Source: Podarcis muralis
Taxonomy: Eukaryota
Length of the DNA: 64,000 nucleotides
Reading direction: 5' to 3'
NCBI RefSeq assembly: GCF_964188315.1
Contig: NC_135657.1
Location: 51,770,001 to 51,834,000 of the forward strand
Below, piece by piece: positions 1 to 12,724 of this stretch. The first letter of the stretch is position 1. Each line of letters starts with the position of its first letter. Under the pieces are notes generated by a model. The model saw nothing but the letters and a program-made list of their open reading frames with translations, had not been told where the DNA came from and did not search any database. Made by a program: the position numbers and the translations under genes.

Positions 1-1095
1 AATAATTGTTGGCATCTCTGTTTCAGAAGACAATGGAGAAGTGCACCTTTAGGGTGAAGTCAAACTGTTAGAAAGTTGCAGCACCTGCTGTCACTGTAGA
101 GACTAGTGTAGAGGAAGAGACATGCTTTGTTGCAGCTGGGGCAGATGAAGGCATCTGGTTGTGCTGCTGCAGATATACCATGGTGTTTCTTCTCCCTTCA
201 CTCCTCCCAGCGGTCATTTCTCCTCTGGTCACTGCTATGGATACACATCTTGACAGCCTGTCTCCAGGCACTGCAGTCATCTGCATGGGATTCCCACATA
301 GCACGGTTGATGTCGCCAGCCTTCGTGTCCCGTTTGCAGACATCTTTGCAACACAGAGTTGGTCTGCCCACAGTCCTAGTCCCTGAAGCCAGCTCCTCAT
401 AAAGCATGTCCTTGGGGTCCCCGCATCTTCCATTCTATGGGCTTGACTGAGCCAGTGTAGCTATTGCCGAGACAGGAGTGCGAACATGTTGGGAATGTGG
501 GCTTGTGAGAGTGTTAGCAGTGAGTTTAATTCTCTGACACAGCTTTGGCCAGTAGTCAATGGCAAATTGTCTAGCAATCCATTGGCTCTCCACTGGGCCT
601 TGCCTTTCTCAGTGTAGCAAATGCTTTTTCACAGGGTGCACACTTGTAGTTCACAGGAGCCTCACACTTTGCAGCAATAACAAGCTCCATGTCCTTTATG
701 CCAGCCTCAAAGCAGTTGGGGATCTGTTGCTCTCTTTTGCCAAAGTAGGACATAGCTGTGTTGTAGATTGCCTCTTTGATGTTGTCCTACCTTGCTTCAA
801 CACCTATCTCTGAAGCGGATCAATACAGCATGTTCAACAAAACCAGAGCAGCATTCACAAATTTGAAGTATGGATGTTCTGACAGTGTTGATTCAAGACC
901 ACACTTTATGCGTTGTACTATGGGCCCTCTTTGGCTGGAGATGGATCTTGCTCGCCACCAAGGAGTTATCCATGTCTCAGTCGGCACTGCGGTAGCTCTG
1001 TGTGACACGAGCACAGTTCAGTGCTGATAGCCTGGTGACAATCAAGTCCAACTGGTGTTGGTGACAGCAAAGTTAAACTTATCTACAAACCAGTT
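1..1095 (-). mobile_element. Decayed, internally deleted RTE-clade LINE (endonuclease end + linker joined to post-RT C-terminus and 3' UTR)
   Basis: Minus-strand translations give QLDLIVTR..TQSYRSAD*DMDNSLVASKIHLQPKR (EN C-terminus), DNIKEAIYNTAMSYFGKREQQIPNCFEAGI..LRKAR (linker), then AHIPNMFALLSRQ*LHWL..HRMED and MLYEELASGTRTVGRPTL..KDVCKRD..WESHADD.SAWRQAVK (C-terminus). Many stops and frameshifts. Confidence 0.8.
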
Positions 1096-2332: not shown

Positions 2333-2675
2333 TATATGAAAGGTTTTTAATGTTCAATGTTTTATTATGTTTTTCTATATGTTGGAAGCTGCCTAGAGTG
2401 GCTGGGGCAACCCAGTATAGGGTGTAAATAGTAAAATTATCATTATGGAATGGGTCCCTATTTTAATCAGAGAAAAGTTGGTGAAATGTTCATTGCCCAA
2501 ATAGAATTGTGCTACACCTCAGCTCTTAGACTGGGCCTTTAGTAAAAAACACCAAATGTATGTGTAGCAACCCATTGCTGTGTAAGTAATCTAGTTGATC
2601 GAGGCCGAGAATAGTTCTTTTCGACATCTGTATTATGGCCCACACCAACTGAAGAATTGAATGAACACTGAAATG

Positions 2676-2875
2676 NNNNNNNNNNNNNNNNNNNNNNNNN
2701 NNNNNNNNNNNNNNNNNNNNNNNNNNNNNNNNNNNNNNNNNNNNNNNNNNNNNNNNNNNNNNNNNNNNNNNNNNNNNNNNNNNNNNNNNNNNNNNNNNNN
2801 NNNNNNNNNNNNNNNNNNNNNNNNNNNNNNNNNNNNNNNNNNNNNNNNNNNNNNNNNNNNNNNNNNNNNNNNNNN
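2676..2875. other. Assembly gap (200 N)
   Basis: Run of exactly 200 N; ORFs spanning it are artefacts. Confidence 0.99.
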
Positions 2876-7279: not shown

Positions 7280-7537
7280 CGCACACACACACCCACATAT
7301 ATACAGTGTAGACTGATTAAAGTGTGGCTTAAATGGCATTGCCCACCGTAGTGGGTGACGTTCCTTTGGAGGAAGGTGTGTGTAAATGATGCCCAGGCGC
7401 ACTTTGCCCAGGCTGGCCCTTCCCCACCTCTCGCGAACGAGTTTGCAGCCCCTTCCTTCCCGGTGTGGCTCCAGAGGGGGGGAGAGGGGGGAACCAAACG
7501 ACCCGAAAGCCAGCTGCAACTGGCTGGTCACACATAC

Positions 7538-7675
7538 CACGGTGTTTTTCATCATGGCTTTGACGGTGAATCCATCGCTGACCTGCTTCTTGCTTCTTCT
7601 GGCATGCCTCAGCGGCTCCTGCAGTTGTGGGGGTCTGTCTTTCTGGGGGCTGGGGCCCTCTTTCTCCGCCACCAT
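7538..7675 (-). CDS. PACRG: Parkin co-regulated gene protein, first coding exon (46 codons)
   Basis: MVAEKEGPSPQKDRPPQLQEPLRHARRSKKQVSDGFTVKAMMKNTV matches the recalled human N-terminus (MVAEKE...VSEGFTVKAMMKNSV). A phase-0 donor GTG|gtatgt at 7537 falls at the equivalent position, and the gene is divergent from PRKN exon 1. Confidence 0.95.
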
Positions 7676-7699
7676 CACCTCAGGCGGCTGCTTGGGAAA

Positions 7700-8290
7700 T
7701 TAAAGAACTTGAGGACGGAAATTCACAAAAACAAAAAACCCGATAACGACCTTTTTTTTTTTTTTTAAGCACTCCTCCCCTTCCTAAATTCCGTCCCCCT
7801 GCATCAGCTCTTCCTCAGCCCCCGCGCAGGCTTCTGTGCAGATTCGGGATGAAGGAAGGGGGAGGGGGGGAAAGATTGGCCTGTTTCTAACACCAACTCG
7901 CTTCTAGGGACTCCGTTGCTAGGCGACGCGTCAACAACGAGCATGTGCAGCTCGAGAACGCTGCCCGTGTCGGGAGCCTCGGCACCACCGCGAAGCTGGG
8001 CTCGATGCGCACGCGCGGTAGCAGCAGCTGAAGTCCTTCGCCTTCTTGTCTTGCCCTCAGTTGAGGCGAGGTTTTTCTTGCCTCTGGCTGAGAACCTACG
8101 AGTGACTCGAACCCGGAAGGAGCTGAAAGGCGTGCAAAGATCTGCCGGGAGCCGAAGCGGGGCCCGGCACCGCTCCTGCGGGACTGGGGCAGGTTAAAGA
8201 GGACAAAGTATCCGGCGAGAACAGAGCATGCTCGATAATTCATATTGAGGTCGCTGCGCCTTCCTTACCTGCTGTTGAACGCCCCAACGT
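7700..8290 (-). promoter_or_regulatory. PACRG-proximal CpG-rich promoter module
   Basis: High CpG density. CCAAT at 7875-7879 (minus strand), RFX X-box GTCGCCTAGCAAC at 7915-7927 (minus strand), perfect NRF1 consensus TGCGCACGCGCG at 8006-8017, and a minus-strand donor CAG|GTAAGG at 8269/8268. Confidence 0.75.
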
Positions 8291-8479
8291 TTATGCCAGT
8301 TGAAGAAGATAGTGAAAATTAGGTTGTCCTATTATAATGAGAGATCGTGTCTGATCCTGGTCCCGGAGAGGGAAGGTTAATAGGATTGTGCTCTGAGAAG
8401 CACCGTAGAAAGGAAAAAATACAGGCAGAGATACCACCTCTCATGGAAATAGAACCACACAGAGCTGTAGAGTTGGGAG

Positions 8480-8569
8480 CATAGCTGTCAACGTTTCCCT
8501 TTTATTAAGGGAAATTCCCTTATTCCGAATAGGACTCCTCGCAAGAAAAGGGAAAAGTTGACAGCTATG
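8480..8569. mobile_element. 90-bp hAT MITE
   Basis: 13-bp perfect TIR catagctgtcaac / gttgacagctatg; 8-bp TSD gttgggag / gttgagag. Confidence 0.9.
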
Positions 8570-9037
8570 GTTGAGAGGGAACCGACGGTCATCTAGTCCA
8601 ACCCCCTACAATACAGGAATCTCAACTTGCGATCCCCGATCCACTTTGAAACTAGAGTAGACCCCCTTTAGCTTTGCAAATGTGCTAGAAGTTTATTGCA
8701 ATGTGCTAGCAGTTTTATTGCTGCACCGCTAGGAGGGTGCCTCTCCATCATCCCCGCCCCGCCTCCACTATTACCTCTTGTGAATTATTTTTCTTTTCCT
8801 TTATTTCCAAAACATTGTTTCGTATAGAACTGCTGATAATACAGACAGTGCAGAAATCCTGTGCGTGCTCCGCTGAAATAAACAGGACTCGTTTCCAAGG
8901 ATCTTAATTGATCACTCTCCACTCCTGCAAAAGCAACTCATGGGACAGAATATATATCTATTGCTGACTTCTGTCTTATCTTGGGAGACAAAACAAAAAA
9001 TTCCTTCCAGTAGCACCTTAAAGACCAACTAAGTTAG

Positions 9038-9087
9038 TTCTTGGTATGAGCTTTCGTGTGCATGCACACTTCTTCAGATACCAAGAA
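9038..9087 (-). ncRNA. Minimal type I hammerhead ribozyme (PLE-type)
   Basis: Minus strand reads UUCUUGGUAU-CUGAAGA-A-GUGUGCAUGCACAC-GAAA-GCUC-AUACCAAGAA: 10-bp helix I, CUGANGA and GAAA core, palindromic helix II and a minimal palindromic helix III (AGCU). Confidence 0.75.
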
Positions 9088-9125
9088 GTATCTGACGAAG
9101 TGTGCATGCACACGAAAGCTCATAC
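9088..9125 (+). ncRNA. Minimal type I hammerhead ribozyme (PLE-type), second copy
   Basis: GUAU-CUGACGA-A-GUGUGCAUGCACAC-GAAA-GCUC-AUAC; helix I is only 4 bp. Confidence 0.65.
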
Positions 9126-10539
9126 CAAGAACTAACTTAGTTGGTCTTTAAGGTGCTACTGGAAGGAATTTTGTTTTGTTTTGACTATGGCAGACCAACA
9201 CGGCTACCTATCTGTACTTGGGAGACAAGTGCACCTTCAGGGGTGAAGTCAACAGAAGACTGTAGGAGAGTTACAGTGTCTGCTGTGGCTGTAGAGGCTG
9301 ATATGGGAGAGACATGTTTTGTTGCAACTGAAAAGTTGAAGGCTTCCGGTTGTGCTGATACAGATGCATCACAGCATTTCTTCTCTCTGCGCTCCTCCCA
9401 GATACCATTCCTCCTCTGATCACTGCTGTGGATAAACCACTTGACTGTCTGTCGCCCGGCACTGTGATTGTCTGTAAGCATGGTGGGGGTGATGTTGCCA
9501 GCATTCATGTCTTATTTGTAGACATCTTTGTAAGAGTTGATTCACCAATGAGCCTGGTGCCTGAGGAGCATGTCGTTGGGGAACCTGCCATCTTCCATTC
9601 TGTGGAATATGTGTGTGTATATACACAGACACACAGACACACACTCCTACACATTATGCTTGTTTTACTGCTTTTGTTTGACTGGCATATCGTATTATAT
9701 TTTAGTACAATGATGTTAAATTTTTTATAAAGTTCCCATAATTTTTGGTAACTTGTGCTTTGAACACACTTGATAAAACTAAACATTATTTCATTTGGTA
9801 ACTTGGCTGCCATATTATTCAGAAGTGTCATTTAATTTCATAGGTCTTCTTCCCAGAGAAATGGGGTTGACTGCAGCCTTAGGTTATGTACATTTATTTA
9901 GTTATTTATTTACATTTCTATACTGTACTGTCTTTCATCCAAGGATGACAGGGCGGTTTGAATATAAAAACAATACATACCATTCTAATAAACAAAAACA
10001 ATACCACCCCATACAGTTTAAAAGGCCATAGATTGTTTAGTTAGCCAAAGGCTACCTGGGAGTGAGCATCACAGAATTCATTGATGCTTACTTCTGAGTA
10101 GATATGTAGCAGGTTTGTGCTGCATTTGCTATAGGACTAACCAAGGCATATCTTTGCTGTTTTTGTGTTTTTAACTGATTTTAATTATCCAATATGTAAA
10201 TCTCCTTGAGACTGTGGTTTAGAAGGTGGATAATAAATCAACAATAGTAATAAATACACACGTCTATTCAGAATTCAACGGGGCTTACTTCCAGGTATAG
10301 GATTGCAGCTTAAATATCCTGGGAAGTGTTTTAAACTCACACTTCCTTATTGCTACTTTTCCAACAATTCAGTTGACACTTGATTCACCTTTGACACATT
10401 TCTTGGGAGTGGTGGAACCCAGCGGGACTTACACCTGCGTAAAAATTGCTATATGAATGTGCTGCACCTGCTCCAAATACGCATCCTCTCTCTCCACCTC
10501 CTAAAGCTAGTGAAAGCGTGGTAAGCAAAGGCAAAAAGG

Positions 10540-11110
10540 TCATAGGATATGCCTGTGGAACGAAGCAGTAGAGGAATGCCGTGCTCAGCGCGCCCACTCG
10601 CCTCACAAAGGTTGAGGGCAAATTATCCCACCCGCCCTTTAGGTTGAGGTCCTGAACGCTTGTAGCGGGACTCAGGCGTCGCTTTTATTCCTGTCTCCTG
10701 GTACTGAACACAACAAGGCGGCAGCGGGAGGGAAGATACCAATATTTGCGTGTGCTGTGTATTATTGCTGTAGCGACGTCCTGTTATGCGCTATTTATAG
10801 ACATTAGCAGGGCGAAGCCGGAGAAGTGAGCAAGCAAGGAGACTACGTTTCCCAGAGTGCACTGCCGCAAGAAGCGCCTCACCTCGCCTGCGCAGTATTC
10901 GGGTTGCAGCTCCGGCGGCCTGCAGGGAGCGTTGTATCCTGAAGGTTGACATTGCTGTGAATGTGGACAGGGCAGGCTATGTGAGCGCGCCCCCTCCTCC
11001 TCCTCCTCCGCAGGCTATGATAGGTGAGTGGGACCCGGATGCAACGTCCCCCTTTGATCCCCTCCCGGCACAACGGGGAAATGGCGGGCGGGTGAAGGGT
11101 GTTCGTGGTT
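10540..11110. promoter_or_regulatory. PRKN promoter CpG island (probable shared bidirectional promoter)
   Basis: CpG-rich. Extended ZNF143/THAP11 motif ACTACGTTTCCCAGAGTGCACTGC at 10842-10865, NRF1-like GCCTGCGCAG at 10886-10895, near X-box at 10764-10777. Confidence 0.8.
11017..11023 (+). CDS. PRKN: E3 ubiquitin ligase parkin, first coding exon (7 nt: M-I-first base of V)
   Basis: ATG ATA G|gtgagt inside a CpG island, head-to-head with PACRG. This matches the known 7-nt coding exon 1 of parkin. Exon 2 was not found in the remaining 53 kb, consistent with the gene's very large intron 1. Confidence 0.88.
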
Positions 11111-12724
11111 TTTCAGGATCAGTGCAGTTTTGCTGAATATCCTAATTCCTATGTATGAACACAGAAATACACCCACGTGACACCGCAGCCTGTGAGCTCC
11201 AGTTTATATAAATTCTATGTAGCTCGTACACTGCCAAAATACCCGCTGAACAATTTACTTTCTCCATATACATACATATATATTCCACCTTTTTTTTTTG
11301 CATTCCATCCCACTTAACAAATAAAAACGAACGTATCTCTCATTATAGTCAACCAAGCTTTTAGGTACTTGACAGGCTTCTGATCCAAACAGTAATGCTG
11401 TTCATATCACAGAAATGCCTTGGTTAGTGATTGGGGCGGGGGGGGGGGGGAGAGAGACACCTTTCTCCTACAAAGAGCAGCCTACTCTTGTGTAACACCA
11501 AAAGCTCACTCCCTCCTCCATCTGGATGCTACTTTGCACACTCAGCCCTCCCCAGTGTGAGAGCCAAAACACCAGGTTAGGTTAAGCACCCCTTAGGGAG
11601 AAAAAGTTTTCACTGTGACACTTATTTTTGAAAGCATCAGCAGCCAAACTAGCAGCTATTGCTGGCGAGGAGAGGTAATCAGCCAGTAAACAGCTATTTC
11701 TTCCTCCTGGACCTTTTTATTTTTAGTTTACCTTATTTCTTCCTCCTGTTGCCCTGTAGCAGAAAATGGGCACTGCCGCCCTGTCTTGCTGCCCTGCTGC
11801 TGTGGTTCTTGAGCTCAGGCAAGCTAGAGAAAGTGCTGTCTGCTTCTCTACCTTCGTTCTCCAGCTCATCCCCTCTAGGCATAGGCAGAAGAAAGCCAGA
11901 GCCTCTACCCATTCACTTGTAACCTTAGTGGTACAACATACATTACGGAGCATCCACCTCATCCTCTCACTCCCCTGTGGCTTGCGGCCCTGTGAACTCA
12001 GTCCTTCCCATCATACTGTCAAAAGAAAGGTGATGAATAAGGAGGCAGAGGTAACTACTCTTCAAAGAGCAGCCACTGCCTGCTTTTGCTGCCTATGGAT
12101 GGCTCCTAGTCTTTACTGCTGTGCCACTCTAGAAAGGGGATGCCCAGGAGCAGGCAGAGTCTTCCAGAGGGGTCTGGCATGTGACCTGTGGCATGCAAAG
12201 CAAGTGTATGAAATGGTCAGGCCACCCCCATTGCTGCCATGCAATCCCTGGAGGGATGGCTGGGGTGAATGTGGCCCTAGATCCAATAAATGAATAAACA
12301 GTTTCATAGAGAGAACTCAGGTGAGATCGCCAACCCTTTGTGGTATACTGCTCAGAGAGAAAGGGAAAAAGCAGAGAGTAGGCAGAAGCAGGTGTCCATT
12401 CTTTCTCTCTAGGCAACACTATGGGTGTAACCCTTCCCACTGTGTTGCCCTCAGAAGATGAACAAGAGAGAGGAGACAGTAGAAGCACAGTAGAGACACA
12501 CCCTCCCTCTTTTAAAGTGAGAGAGTTCAAAAGAGAAGGTGCTGGACTGGAGGTTACAGAAGTTTGGCGGGGGTACCTCTCCCCTTCCAGCTTCTCCCCA
12601 ATCTCTGTTGCAGGTCTTAAATAAGATCATTCCTGTTGGTGGAGGTCATTGGGCAAACCTAAACAAAACAACTATTCTGAAACATCTGTTTTGATGAATT
12701 AAGATTTCCCATTAAGTAAAGGGG

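What the first reader, a model, noticed from the sequence alone, without database searches (positions are those of the whole stretch)
8980..9228. Back-to-back hammerhead ribozyme pair in a fold-back Penelope insert between the PACRG and PRKN promoters
Seen: a 225-bp insert inside a 12-bp TSD forms about 90-bp near-perfect inverted arms. Each strand carries a complete hammerhead core (CUGANGA, an extra A, palindromic helix II GUGUGCAUGCACAC, GAAA, GCUC). The minus-strand copy, which is PACRG sense, has a perfect 10-bp helix I (UUCUUGGUAU/AUACCAAGAA); predicted cleavage is between 9048 and 9047. The plus copy would cleave between 9121 and 9122. Established: PLE pseudo-LTRs carry minimal type I hammerheads whose helix III is a tiny palindrome, and these work best as dimers; an extra nucleotide after A9 is tolerated in some natural hammerheads. 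Inference: any PACRG transcript starting at the distal PRKN-shared promoter must cross this unit. It could be cleaved there (possibly via trans dimers with other PLE transcripts) or fold into a long dsRNA hairpin (ADAR or Dicer substrate), biasing output of the bidirectional promoter. Caveat: there is only one core per strand, and the long hairpin would compete with ribozyme folding.
Basis: partly seen in the sequence, partly recalled or inferred. Interest (0 to 1): 0.7.

Follow-up and report, generated by a model that had tools for sequence, protein, structure and literature searches.

The report
Twin-primed Penelope stub with trapped ribozymes
This mirror-image insert is one of roughly 850 near-identical stubs of a Penelope jumping gene in this genome; its two ribozyme motifs are predicted to be locked inside a long hairpin, so it likely does not regulate PACRG or PRKN, but the stubs' ends likely record how these elements copy themselves from both sides of a DNA cut.

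Summary
The anatomy is real: a 225-bp insert, 12-bp target duplication, 90-nt arms 97% complementary, and one minimal hammerhead core per strand. It is not special to this locus. The genome holds 5,737 exact core matches and about 850-870 tight head-to-head junctions, from a Penelope-like element with RT and GIY-YIG domains. The native helix I has 4 bp; the 10-bp helix is a junction by-product (42 exact copies against 2,289 native). On either strand the antisense arm is transcribed first, and the hairpin beats the ribozyme fold by about 58-61 kcal/mol. Sparse RNA reads place PACRG transcripts at their own CpG island about 1 kb from the insert, and none cross unique DNA beside it. The regulatory reading is not supported. 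The family does carry a mechanistic signature: the tail is on one arm only (50 of 52), arms end 4-6 nt before the core, often with an extra G, and 11 of 13 hybrid joins need two cDNAs. That fits twin priming and run-off at a capped 5' end. The scan noted twin priming before on other DNA; my literature searches did not find it in print.

The parts
8980..8991 (+). left target-site duplication, 12 bp
8992..9081 (-). inverted arm without tail: element sense on minus, from 4 nt before the core to the U tract; inferred product of the cDNA primed at the left target end
   Evidence: no difference from reference L061 over 79 nt
9048..9077 (-). minimal hammerhead core (minus copy); predicted cut between 9048 and 9047
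9082..9087 (.). 6-nt junction, not native to the element; supplies 6 of the 10 bp of the minus helix I; 9082 is the candidate cap-templated base
   Evidence: native upstream sequence differs
9088..9182 (+). direct arm: element sense on plus, starting 4 nt before the core
   Evidence: 97.7% to L061
9092..9121 (+). minimal hammerhead core (plus copy), one substitution at variable N7 (9096); helix I only 4 bp; predicted cut between 9121 and 9122
9183..9216 (+). one-sided Penelope 'tail', about 34 nt
   Evidence: definition in PMC8557442
9217..9228 (+). right target-site duplication
9229..9605 (.). older interspersed repeat into which the insert landed (69.5% to window 36-440); LINE-like by recall only
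   Evidence: no meaningful Pfam match
7538..7675 (-). PACRG first coding exon (context)
   Evidence: RNA reads
7801..8400 (.). CpG island proximal to PACRG, with an RFX X-box-like motif at 7915 (motif name recalled); likely PACRG promoter (context)
10401..11200 (.). CpG island at PRKN exon 1 (ATG at 11017), with a ZNF143/Staf-like motif at 10842 (motif name recalled) (context)

Best explanation
The insert is a short head-to-head stub of a Penelope-like retrotransposon (Neptune type by its linker motif) whose two hammerhead motifs are likely inert passengers, and it was likely built when both ends of one staggered DNA cut primed reverse transcription on the element's 5' leader RNA. Shown: a protein-coding parent with RT and GIY-YIG; thousands of copies; a 12-13 bp target duplication; a tail on one arm only; arm ends piled 4-6 nt before the core; junctions that differ from copy to copy. 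Inferred: (1) the pLTR promoter (TATA box 30-33 nt upstream) starts a capped RNA 4-6 nt before the core; (2) one target end primes at the far end of the tail and the other at the U tract, matching the two internal start sites shown in vitro for an anole element; (3) both cDNAs run off the 5' end, often adding a cap-templated C; (4) the two 3' ends are joined through short templated additions and microhomology. Here one cDNA end annealed to the helix I sequence and copied five or six more bases, which created the 10-bp helix I by accident. In any transcript the antisense arm comes first and would zip the core into a 90-bp duplex. I put about 0.9 on the passenger status and about 0.65 on twin priming.
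For: Copy number: 5,737 exact 42-nt core matches; 854 forward and 868 reverse tight junction matches. Parent: L061, 833 aa, RVT_1 E 4e-12 and GIY-YIG E 3e-05, with the same pLTR, an inverted truncated copy and a one-sided tail. Tail on exactly one arm in 50 of 52 tight loci, on neither in 2, on both in 0; 46 distinct junctions in 52; longest flank duplication 12-13 nt in 26 of 52 and 9-17 nt in 43 of 52. Of 109 cores from an architecture-blind sample, 71 lack the native promoter region and 57 of these end 3-8 nt before the core. Base preceding a -4 end, genome-wide: G 1,409, A 506, C 244; 41 G-class matches share no upstream sequence. Hybrid class with the core as loop: the tail is on the core-less arm in 11 of 13, which one folded-back cDNA cannot give. 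Mirrored variants in both arms: 2 shared among 10 left and 9 right variants in 44 young loci, plus L035, L069, L071 and L258 by eye. Energies. PMC11167929: the anole protein cuts and extends both strands, starts at two internal sites bounding the tail, is predicted to be a dimer, and its ribozyme needs protein and is dispensable for insertion in vitro.
Against: No start-site data: the transcription start is inferred from a TATA-like box and from arm ends, and the same spot reads as a splice acceptor. In the small young-copy sample the base before -4 ends was A 7, G 6, C 1, weaker than the genome-wide G excess; many G-class hits belong to older subfamilies. The equally large -6 class (1,383 matches; T precedes 21 of 24) is not explained by the cap alone. 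The tight set was chosen by a pattern that limits junctions to 30 nt and comes from one chromosome. In the window copy the single substitution is not mirrored and the U tracts differ. One RNA-labelled contig (a guess, depth 2) covers 10441-10709, a weak hint of divergent transcription from the PRKN island. RNA depth was low (6-12% of each run read), and 95-99% of laid reads ran on into other loci. The in vitro work is on a Poseidon-clade element, not this one.
Confidence: 0.75

Rival explanations
1. One reading: PACRG transcripts from the PRKN-side promoter cross the insert and are cleaved by the minus hammerhead (in cis or as trans dimers), or form a dsRNA substrate for ADAR or Dicer, biasing the promoter's output.
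For: The core is intact and the isolated 50-mer forms helices I and II within 1.6 kcal/mol of its ensemble. The hairpin is a near-perfect 90-bp duplex. A depth-2 contig at 10441-10709. The left junction sequence (8708-9017, 26 nt into the insert) is present unchanged in two other DNA runs of the same species label.
Against: The ribozyme fold costs 58-61 kcal/mol in context and the antisense arm is made first. There is no monomer helix III and no second same-sense core in cis. Related minimal motifs are inactive as monomers and weak as dimers (PMC4209133). PACRG has its own island; reads stop near 8034; no distal joint; no read-end pile-up at either cut site. No donor-like or acceptor-like site for a distal exon by a simple regex. 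The insert sits inside an older repeat and is one of about 850.
Confidence: 0.07
2. The inverted arm arises by self-priming (fold-back of one cDNA, or on an antisense template), the published hypothesis for head-to-head Penelope structures.
For: Proposed in PMC3846280. Many junctions are small palindromes or snap-back copies, and mirrored variants fit a single template.
Against: 11 of 13 core-as-loop hybrids carry the tail on the arm that lacks the core, which needs a second antisense strand. Both arms end near the same 5' position, with extra bases between them. The target duplication is retained.
Confidence: 0.2
3. The arms end at a 3' splice site of a pLTR intron rather than at a transcription start.
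For: The native upstream sequence reads as a pyrimidine tract plus CAG five bases before the core; in D. virilis the intron end maps to the 5' end of helix I (PMC4209133).
Against: A spliced template should carry a shared upstream exon; none is seen in 41 G-class matches or among the short arms. Ends peak at -4 and -6, not -5.
Confidence: 0.12
4. The whole palindrome is a self-replicating non-autonomous element (MITE-like, or a SINE-like master).
For: All 40 scored candidates cover nearly the whole 225 bp at 95-100% identity; one junction string recurs in 7 of the 30 best hits.
Against: 46 distinct junctions in 52 loci, and the recurring junction also appears in an older subfamily; arm lengths range up to kilobases.
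Confidence: 0.04

Closest known systems
EN+ Penelope-like element insertion with inverted 5'-truncated pLTR, one-sided 30-40 bp tail and TSD (PMC8557442, PMC3846280, PMC2377424; passages read)
   Same: Inverted copy adjacent at the 5' end, tail on one end, target duplication, TATA/Inr-like motifs in the pLTR, parent ORF with RT then GIY-YIG.
   Different: Reduced to the shortest form (leader only, no ORF or promoter). The published explanation is self-priming on an antisense template; the hybrids here favour two separately primed cDNAs.
Minimal type I hammerheads of metazoan PLEs (PMC4209133; results and discussion read)
   Same: Core boxes, extra nucleotide after A9, G10.1-C11.1, long helix II, native 4-bp helix I, palindromic positions 15.2-16.2. 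That paper also notes pairs 100-700 bp apart on opposite strands, and such motifs in turtles and snakes.
   Different: Here the pair is only 6 nt apart and mutually sequestered, and helix I of one copy is lengthened to 10 bp by the junction.
Anolis Poseidon element PAc (PMC11167929; main text read, supplements not opened)
   Same: Two internal reverse-transcription start sites bounding the tail; both target strands cut and extended; ribozyme near the RNA 5' end.
   Different: Different clade; the text read does not derive inverted insertions or cap run-off from these properties.
L1 twin priming (recalled; not read)
   Same: Both target ends prime, giving an inverted 5' segment inside one target duplication.
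   Different: L1 segments are non-overlapping parts of one RNA; here both cDNAs copy the same roughly 90 nt and meet at the RNA's 5' end.
Animal non-LTR retrozymes (bioRxiv 10.64898/2026.07.22.740005; part 1 of 5 and passages read)
   Same: Non-coding, hammerhead-bearing, derived from the PLE pLTR.
   Different: Retrozymes are head-to-tail tandem arrays with same-sense ribozymes; this insert is head-to-head.

Membership tests
EN+ Penelope-like element | parent ORF with RT followed by GIY-YIG endonuclease | tested here: met
   L061, 833 aa, PF00078 and PF01541 over cut-off; insert arms 97-98% identical to its pLTR
EN+ Penelope-like element | inverted 5'-truncated copy, one-sided 30-40 bp tail, target duplication | tested here: met
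Neptune clade | CX2-5CxxC linker between RT and endonuclease | tested here: met
   CX4CxxC read by eye in the L061 translation; definition from PMC8557442
Neptune clade | placement in an RT phylogeny | not tested
   no reference proteins fetched, no tree built
Minimal type I hammerhead of PLEs | core boxes, extra nucleotide after A9, G10.1-C11.1, short helix I, palindromic 15.2-16.2 | tested here: met
   definition
Minimal type I hammerhead of PLEs | self-cleavage as a dimer | not testable with these tools
   needs an in vitro assay; 0 of 123 arm ends lie at the predicted cut
Active hammerhead in this genomic context | core free to fold, with a same-sense partner | tested here: not met
   58-61 kcal/mol penalty, one core per strand
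Rfam hammerhead families | match to a curated model | tested here: not met
Non-LTR retrozyme | two or more head-to-tail units, each with a hammerhead | tested here: not met
   arms are head-to-head
MITE or palindromic master element | fixed internal junction inherited by copies | tested here: not met
   46 distinct junctions in 52 loci
microRNA precursor | match at a family's gathering score; processed small RNAs | tested here: inconclusive
   only generic hairpin matches below gathering; no small-RNA data

The most novel reading that the evidence does not exclude
These stubs are in vivo records of the Penelope transposition cycle: a dimeric RT-endonuclease primes from both ends of a 12-13 bp staggered cut, one end at each internal start site, copies an uncleaved capped leader to its 5' end, and the two cDNAs are joined head to head, sometimes guided by the ribozyme's own helix I complementarity. 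The self-complementary 14-nt helix II could pair two template RNAs (a leader dimer folds at -32.2 kcal/mol against -7.6 per monomer), so the hammerhead may act as a dimerisation signal as well as, or instead of, a nuclease. This would replace the antisense self-priming hypothesis for inverted pLTRs.
Probability: 0.5. Interest if true: 0.6.

Novelty: new member of a known kind. Interest (0 to 1): 0.32.

Why it matters
For PACRG and PRKN it probably does not matter: it is a young transposon stub inside an older repeat between two separate CpG islands. It matters as a warning that back-to-back hammerheads and long helix I stems in reptile genomes can be insertion by-products. The family as a whole bears on an open question, how Penelope elements make inverted repeats and one-sided tails, and gives three testable predictions: twin priming, run-off at a capped start, and an uncleaved ribozyme in the template.

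Tried and rejected
Rfam scans found no hammerhead family; the microRNA hits are generic hairpin matches below gathering. Sequencing-run search: no RNA holder listed, no evidence either way. The RNA-labelled contig runs left most unique bins uncovered, which is not used as evidence. A-to-G differences over the insert cannot be called editing, because 95-99% of reads come from other copies. Presence/absence: no empty-site joint among the rows shown (138 joints not shown), and the two junction contigs reach only 26 nt into the insert, short of the tool's 31-nt bridging rule; other lizard genomes could not be searched. Insert ends at the ribozyme cut, reported by a scan note for another genome: 0 of 123 arms here. 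The first end count had duplicate rows and was redone. The host repeat could not be named by Pfam. A motif scan for PRKN exon 2 inside the window found only one spurious hit. The sequence and place look-ups of earlier findings gave nothing relevant. Lunse et al. (RNA Biol) is not held; I saw it only as summarised in PMC6765202. Searches for a published twin-priming model of PLEs (listings only, open-access library) showed none; subscription papers and supplements (notably Fig. S2 of PMC11167929) were not seen and may bear on this.

Full report
Observation. The insert spans 8992-9216 between 12-bp duplications. Its arms (8992-9081, 9088-9177) are 90 nt, 97% complementary and 6 nt apart, and the RNA fold has z = -25.6. 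Each strand has a complete minimal hammerhead core with the stated cut sites. The minus copy has a 10-bp helix I; the plus copy has 4 bp. The PACRG exon and the PRKN assignment hold. No Rfam hammerhead model matches.

What it is. The core occurs 5,737 times exactly in the 1.52-Gb genome, against 0 for the reversed control. Tight head-to-head junctions match 854 times forward and 868 times reverse, so about 850-870 loci. Locus L061 holds an 833-aa ORF with RT and GIY-YIG domains and a CX4CxxC linker, flanked by the same pLTR, with an inverted truncated copy and a one-sided tail. This is the architecture described for EN+ Penelope-like elements (PMC8557442; PMC3846280; PMC2377424; passages read). 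Opposite-strand minimal hammerhead pairs were already noted in PMC4209133. The insert landed in an older repeat that is 69.5% identical to window 36-440.

The 10-bp helix I is an accident. In the native element the sequence 5' of the core gives only 4 bp; that native form occurs 2,289 times. The 10-bp form occurs 42 times. Of the 30 fetched, 16 are two-core head-to-head joins, 11 are core-as-loop hybrids and 3 were classed as other (one of them a hybrid of an older subfamily by eye); none has the native upstream sequence. The extra bases are a copy of the element's own antisense helix I strand, placed at the junction.

Can it cleave here? Unlikely. The motif has no monomer helix III and needs a same-sense partner; such motifs are inactive as monomers and weak as dimers (PMC4209133; PMC6765202), and the anole ribozyme needed protein (PMC11167929). 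Head-to-head order puts the antisense arm first on both strands. The ribozyme-compatible fold costs 60.8 (minus) and 57.9 (plus) kcal/mol in context, and 47.0 and 42.3 at the moment helix I is completed.

Is it transcribed with PACRG? In mouse the Pacrg start codon lies in exon 1, and the two genes' starts are about 200 bp apart (PMC5951884, passages). Here there are two CpG-rich stretches, about 7800-8400 and 10400-11200. In four raw RNA runs (6-12% of each read), three cover 7527-8034 or part of it and two cover 10829-11082 thinly; none covers 8035-8161, 8797-8923, 9432-9939 or 10067-10828; one has depth 1.9 at 8162-8288; no joint links a distal exon to PACRG; no ends pile up at the cut sites. 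Against this reading, one RNA-labelled contig of depth 2 covers 10441-10709. So PACRG likely starts near 8030 and runs away from the insert, but rare read-through is not excluded.

How it was made. In 52 tight loci (from the first 100 rows, all on C1; 66 loci given, both-strand duplicates merged) the tail is on one arm in 50, on neither in 2 and on both in 0; junctions are distinct in 46; the flank duplication is 12-13 nt in 26, 9-17 nt in 43, and not found in 9. In an architecture-blind sample (loci around the first 100 rows), 57 of the 71 cores lacking the promoter region end 3-8 nt before the core, with peaks at -6 (21) and -4 (14) among 123 arms and none at the ribozyme cut. A TATA-like box lies 30-33 nt upstream of these ends. 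Ends at -4 are preceded by G 1,409 times, A 506 and C 244, with no shared upstream sequence in 41 G-class matches. This suggests a cap-templated base, although the small young sample gave A 7, G 6, C 1 and the -6 class is mostly preceded by T. In 13 exact core-as-loop hybrids the tail is on the core-less arm in 11, on the core arm in 1 and absent in 1; the majority form needs a second antisense strand as template. With the in vitro finding that a lizard PLE protein cuts and extends both strands and starts at two sites bounding the tail (PMC11167929), the simplest model is twin priming, run-off at the RNA 5' end, and microhomology joining. Mirrored variants say both cDNAs often come from one RNA or one source locus; they do not tell which. 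The published alternative is self-priming on an antisense template (PMC3846280).

Novelty. The insert is a new member of a known kind, and its location looks incidental. I wrote down the twin-priming reading before seeing that the scan had reached it in eight other windows; those notes are not independent support. One of them reports ends at the ribozyme cut, which this family does not show. Five literature searches showed no published twin-priming model for these elements in the open library. Interest 0.32: low for the regulatory claim, moderate for the mechanistic signature.

Noticed in passing
L256-L261, L263-L267 (e.g. G000:C2:49672015): Core-as-loop hybrids: a single hammerhead core closed by a helix I extended to about 45 bp, with the core not sequestered. 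These are better candidates for cleavage from host transcripts than the window copy.
   Followed up: partly
window 7800-8400 and 10400-11200: The PACRG/PRKN promoter, about 200 bp in mammals, appears here as two CpG islands about 2 kb apart, separated by repeats; an X-box-like motif at 7915 and a Staf-like motif at 10842 (names recalled) suggest separate control.
   Followed up: partly
window 8480-8569: A 90-bp element with 27-nt terminal inverted repeats (93%), very high copy in DNA and RNA lays; MITE-like, unnamed.
   Followed up: no
L061 1103-4670: Near-complete parent element: 833-aa open frame on the minus strand joined head to head with an inverted 3' fragment, inside a 12-bp duplication.
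   Followed up: partly
L036, L054, L067, L069, L192, L221: Junctions with several short tandem re-copies of the leader's first bases, suggesting repeated slippage or template jumps at the RNA 5' end.
   Followed up: no
L031 and L032: The same insertion with identical flanks at C1:26 kb and C1:320 kb, likely a segmental duplication.
   Followed up: no
window 10346-10822: One other DNA run (X19) differs at 16 places in a 1,047-nt contig over the PRKN island, while 8708-9017 is identical: high allelic diversity at the promoter.
   Followed up: no
window 2675-2875: Assembly gap (run of N).
   Followed up: no
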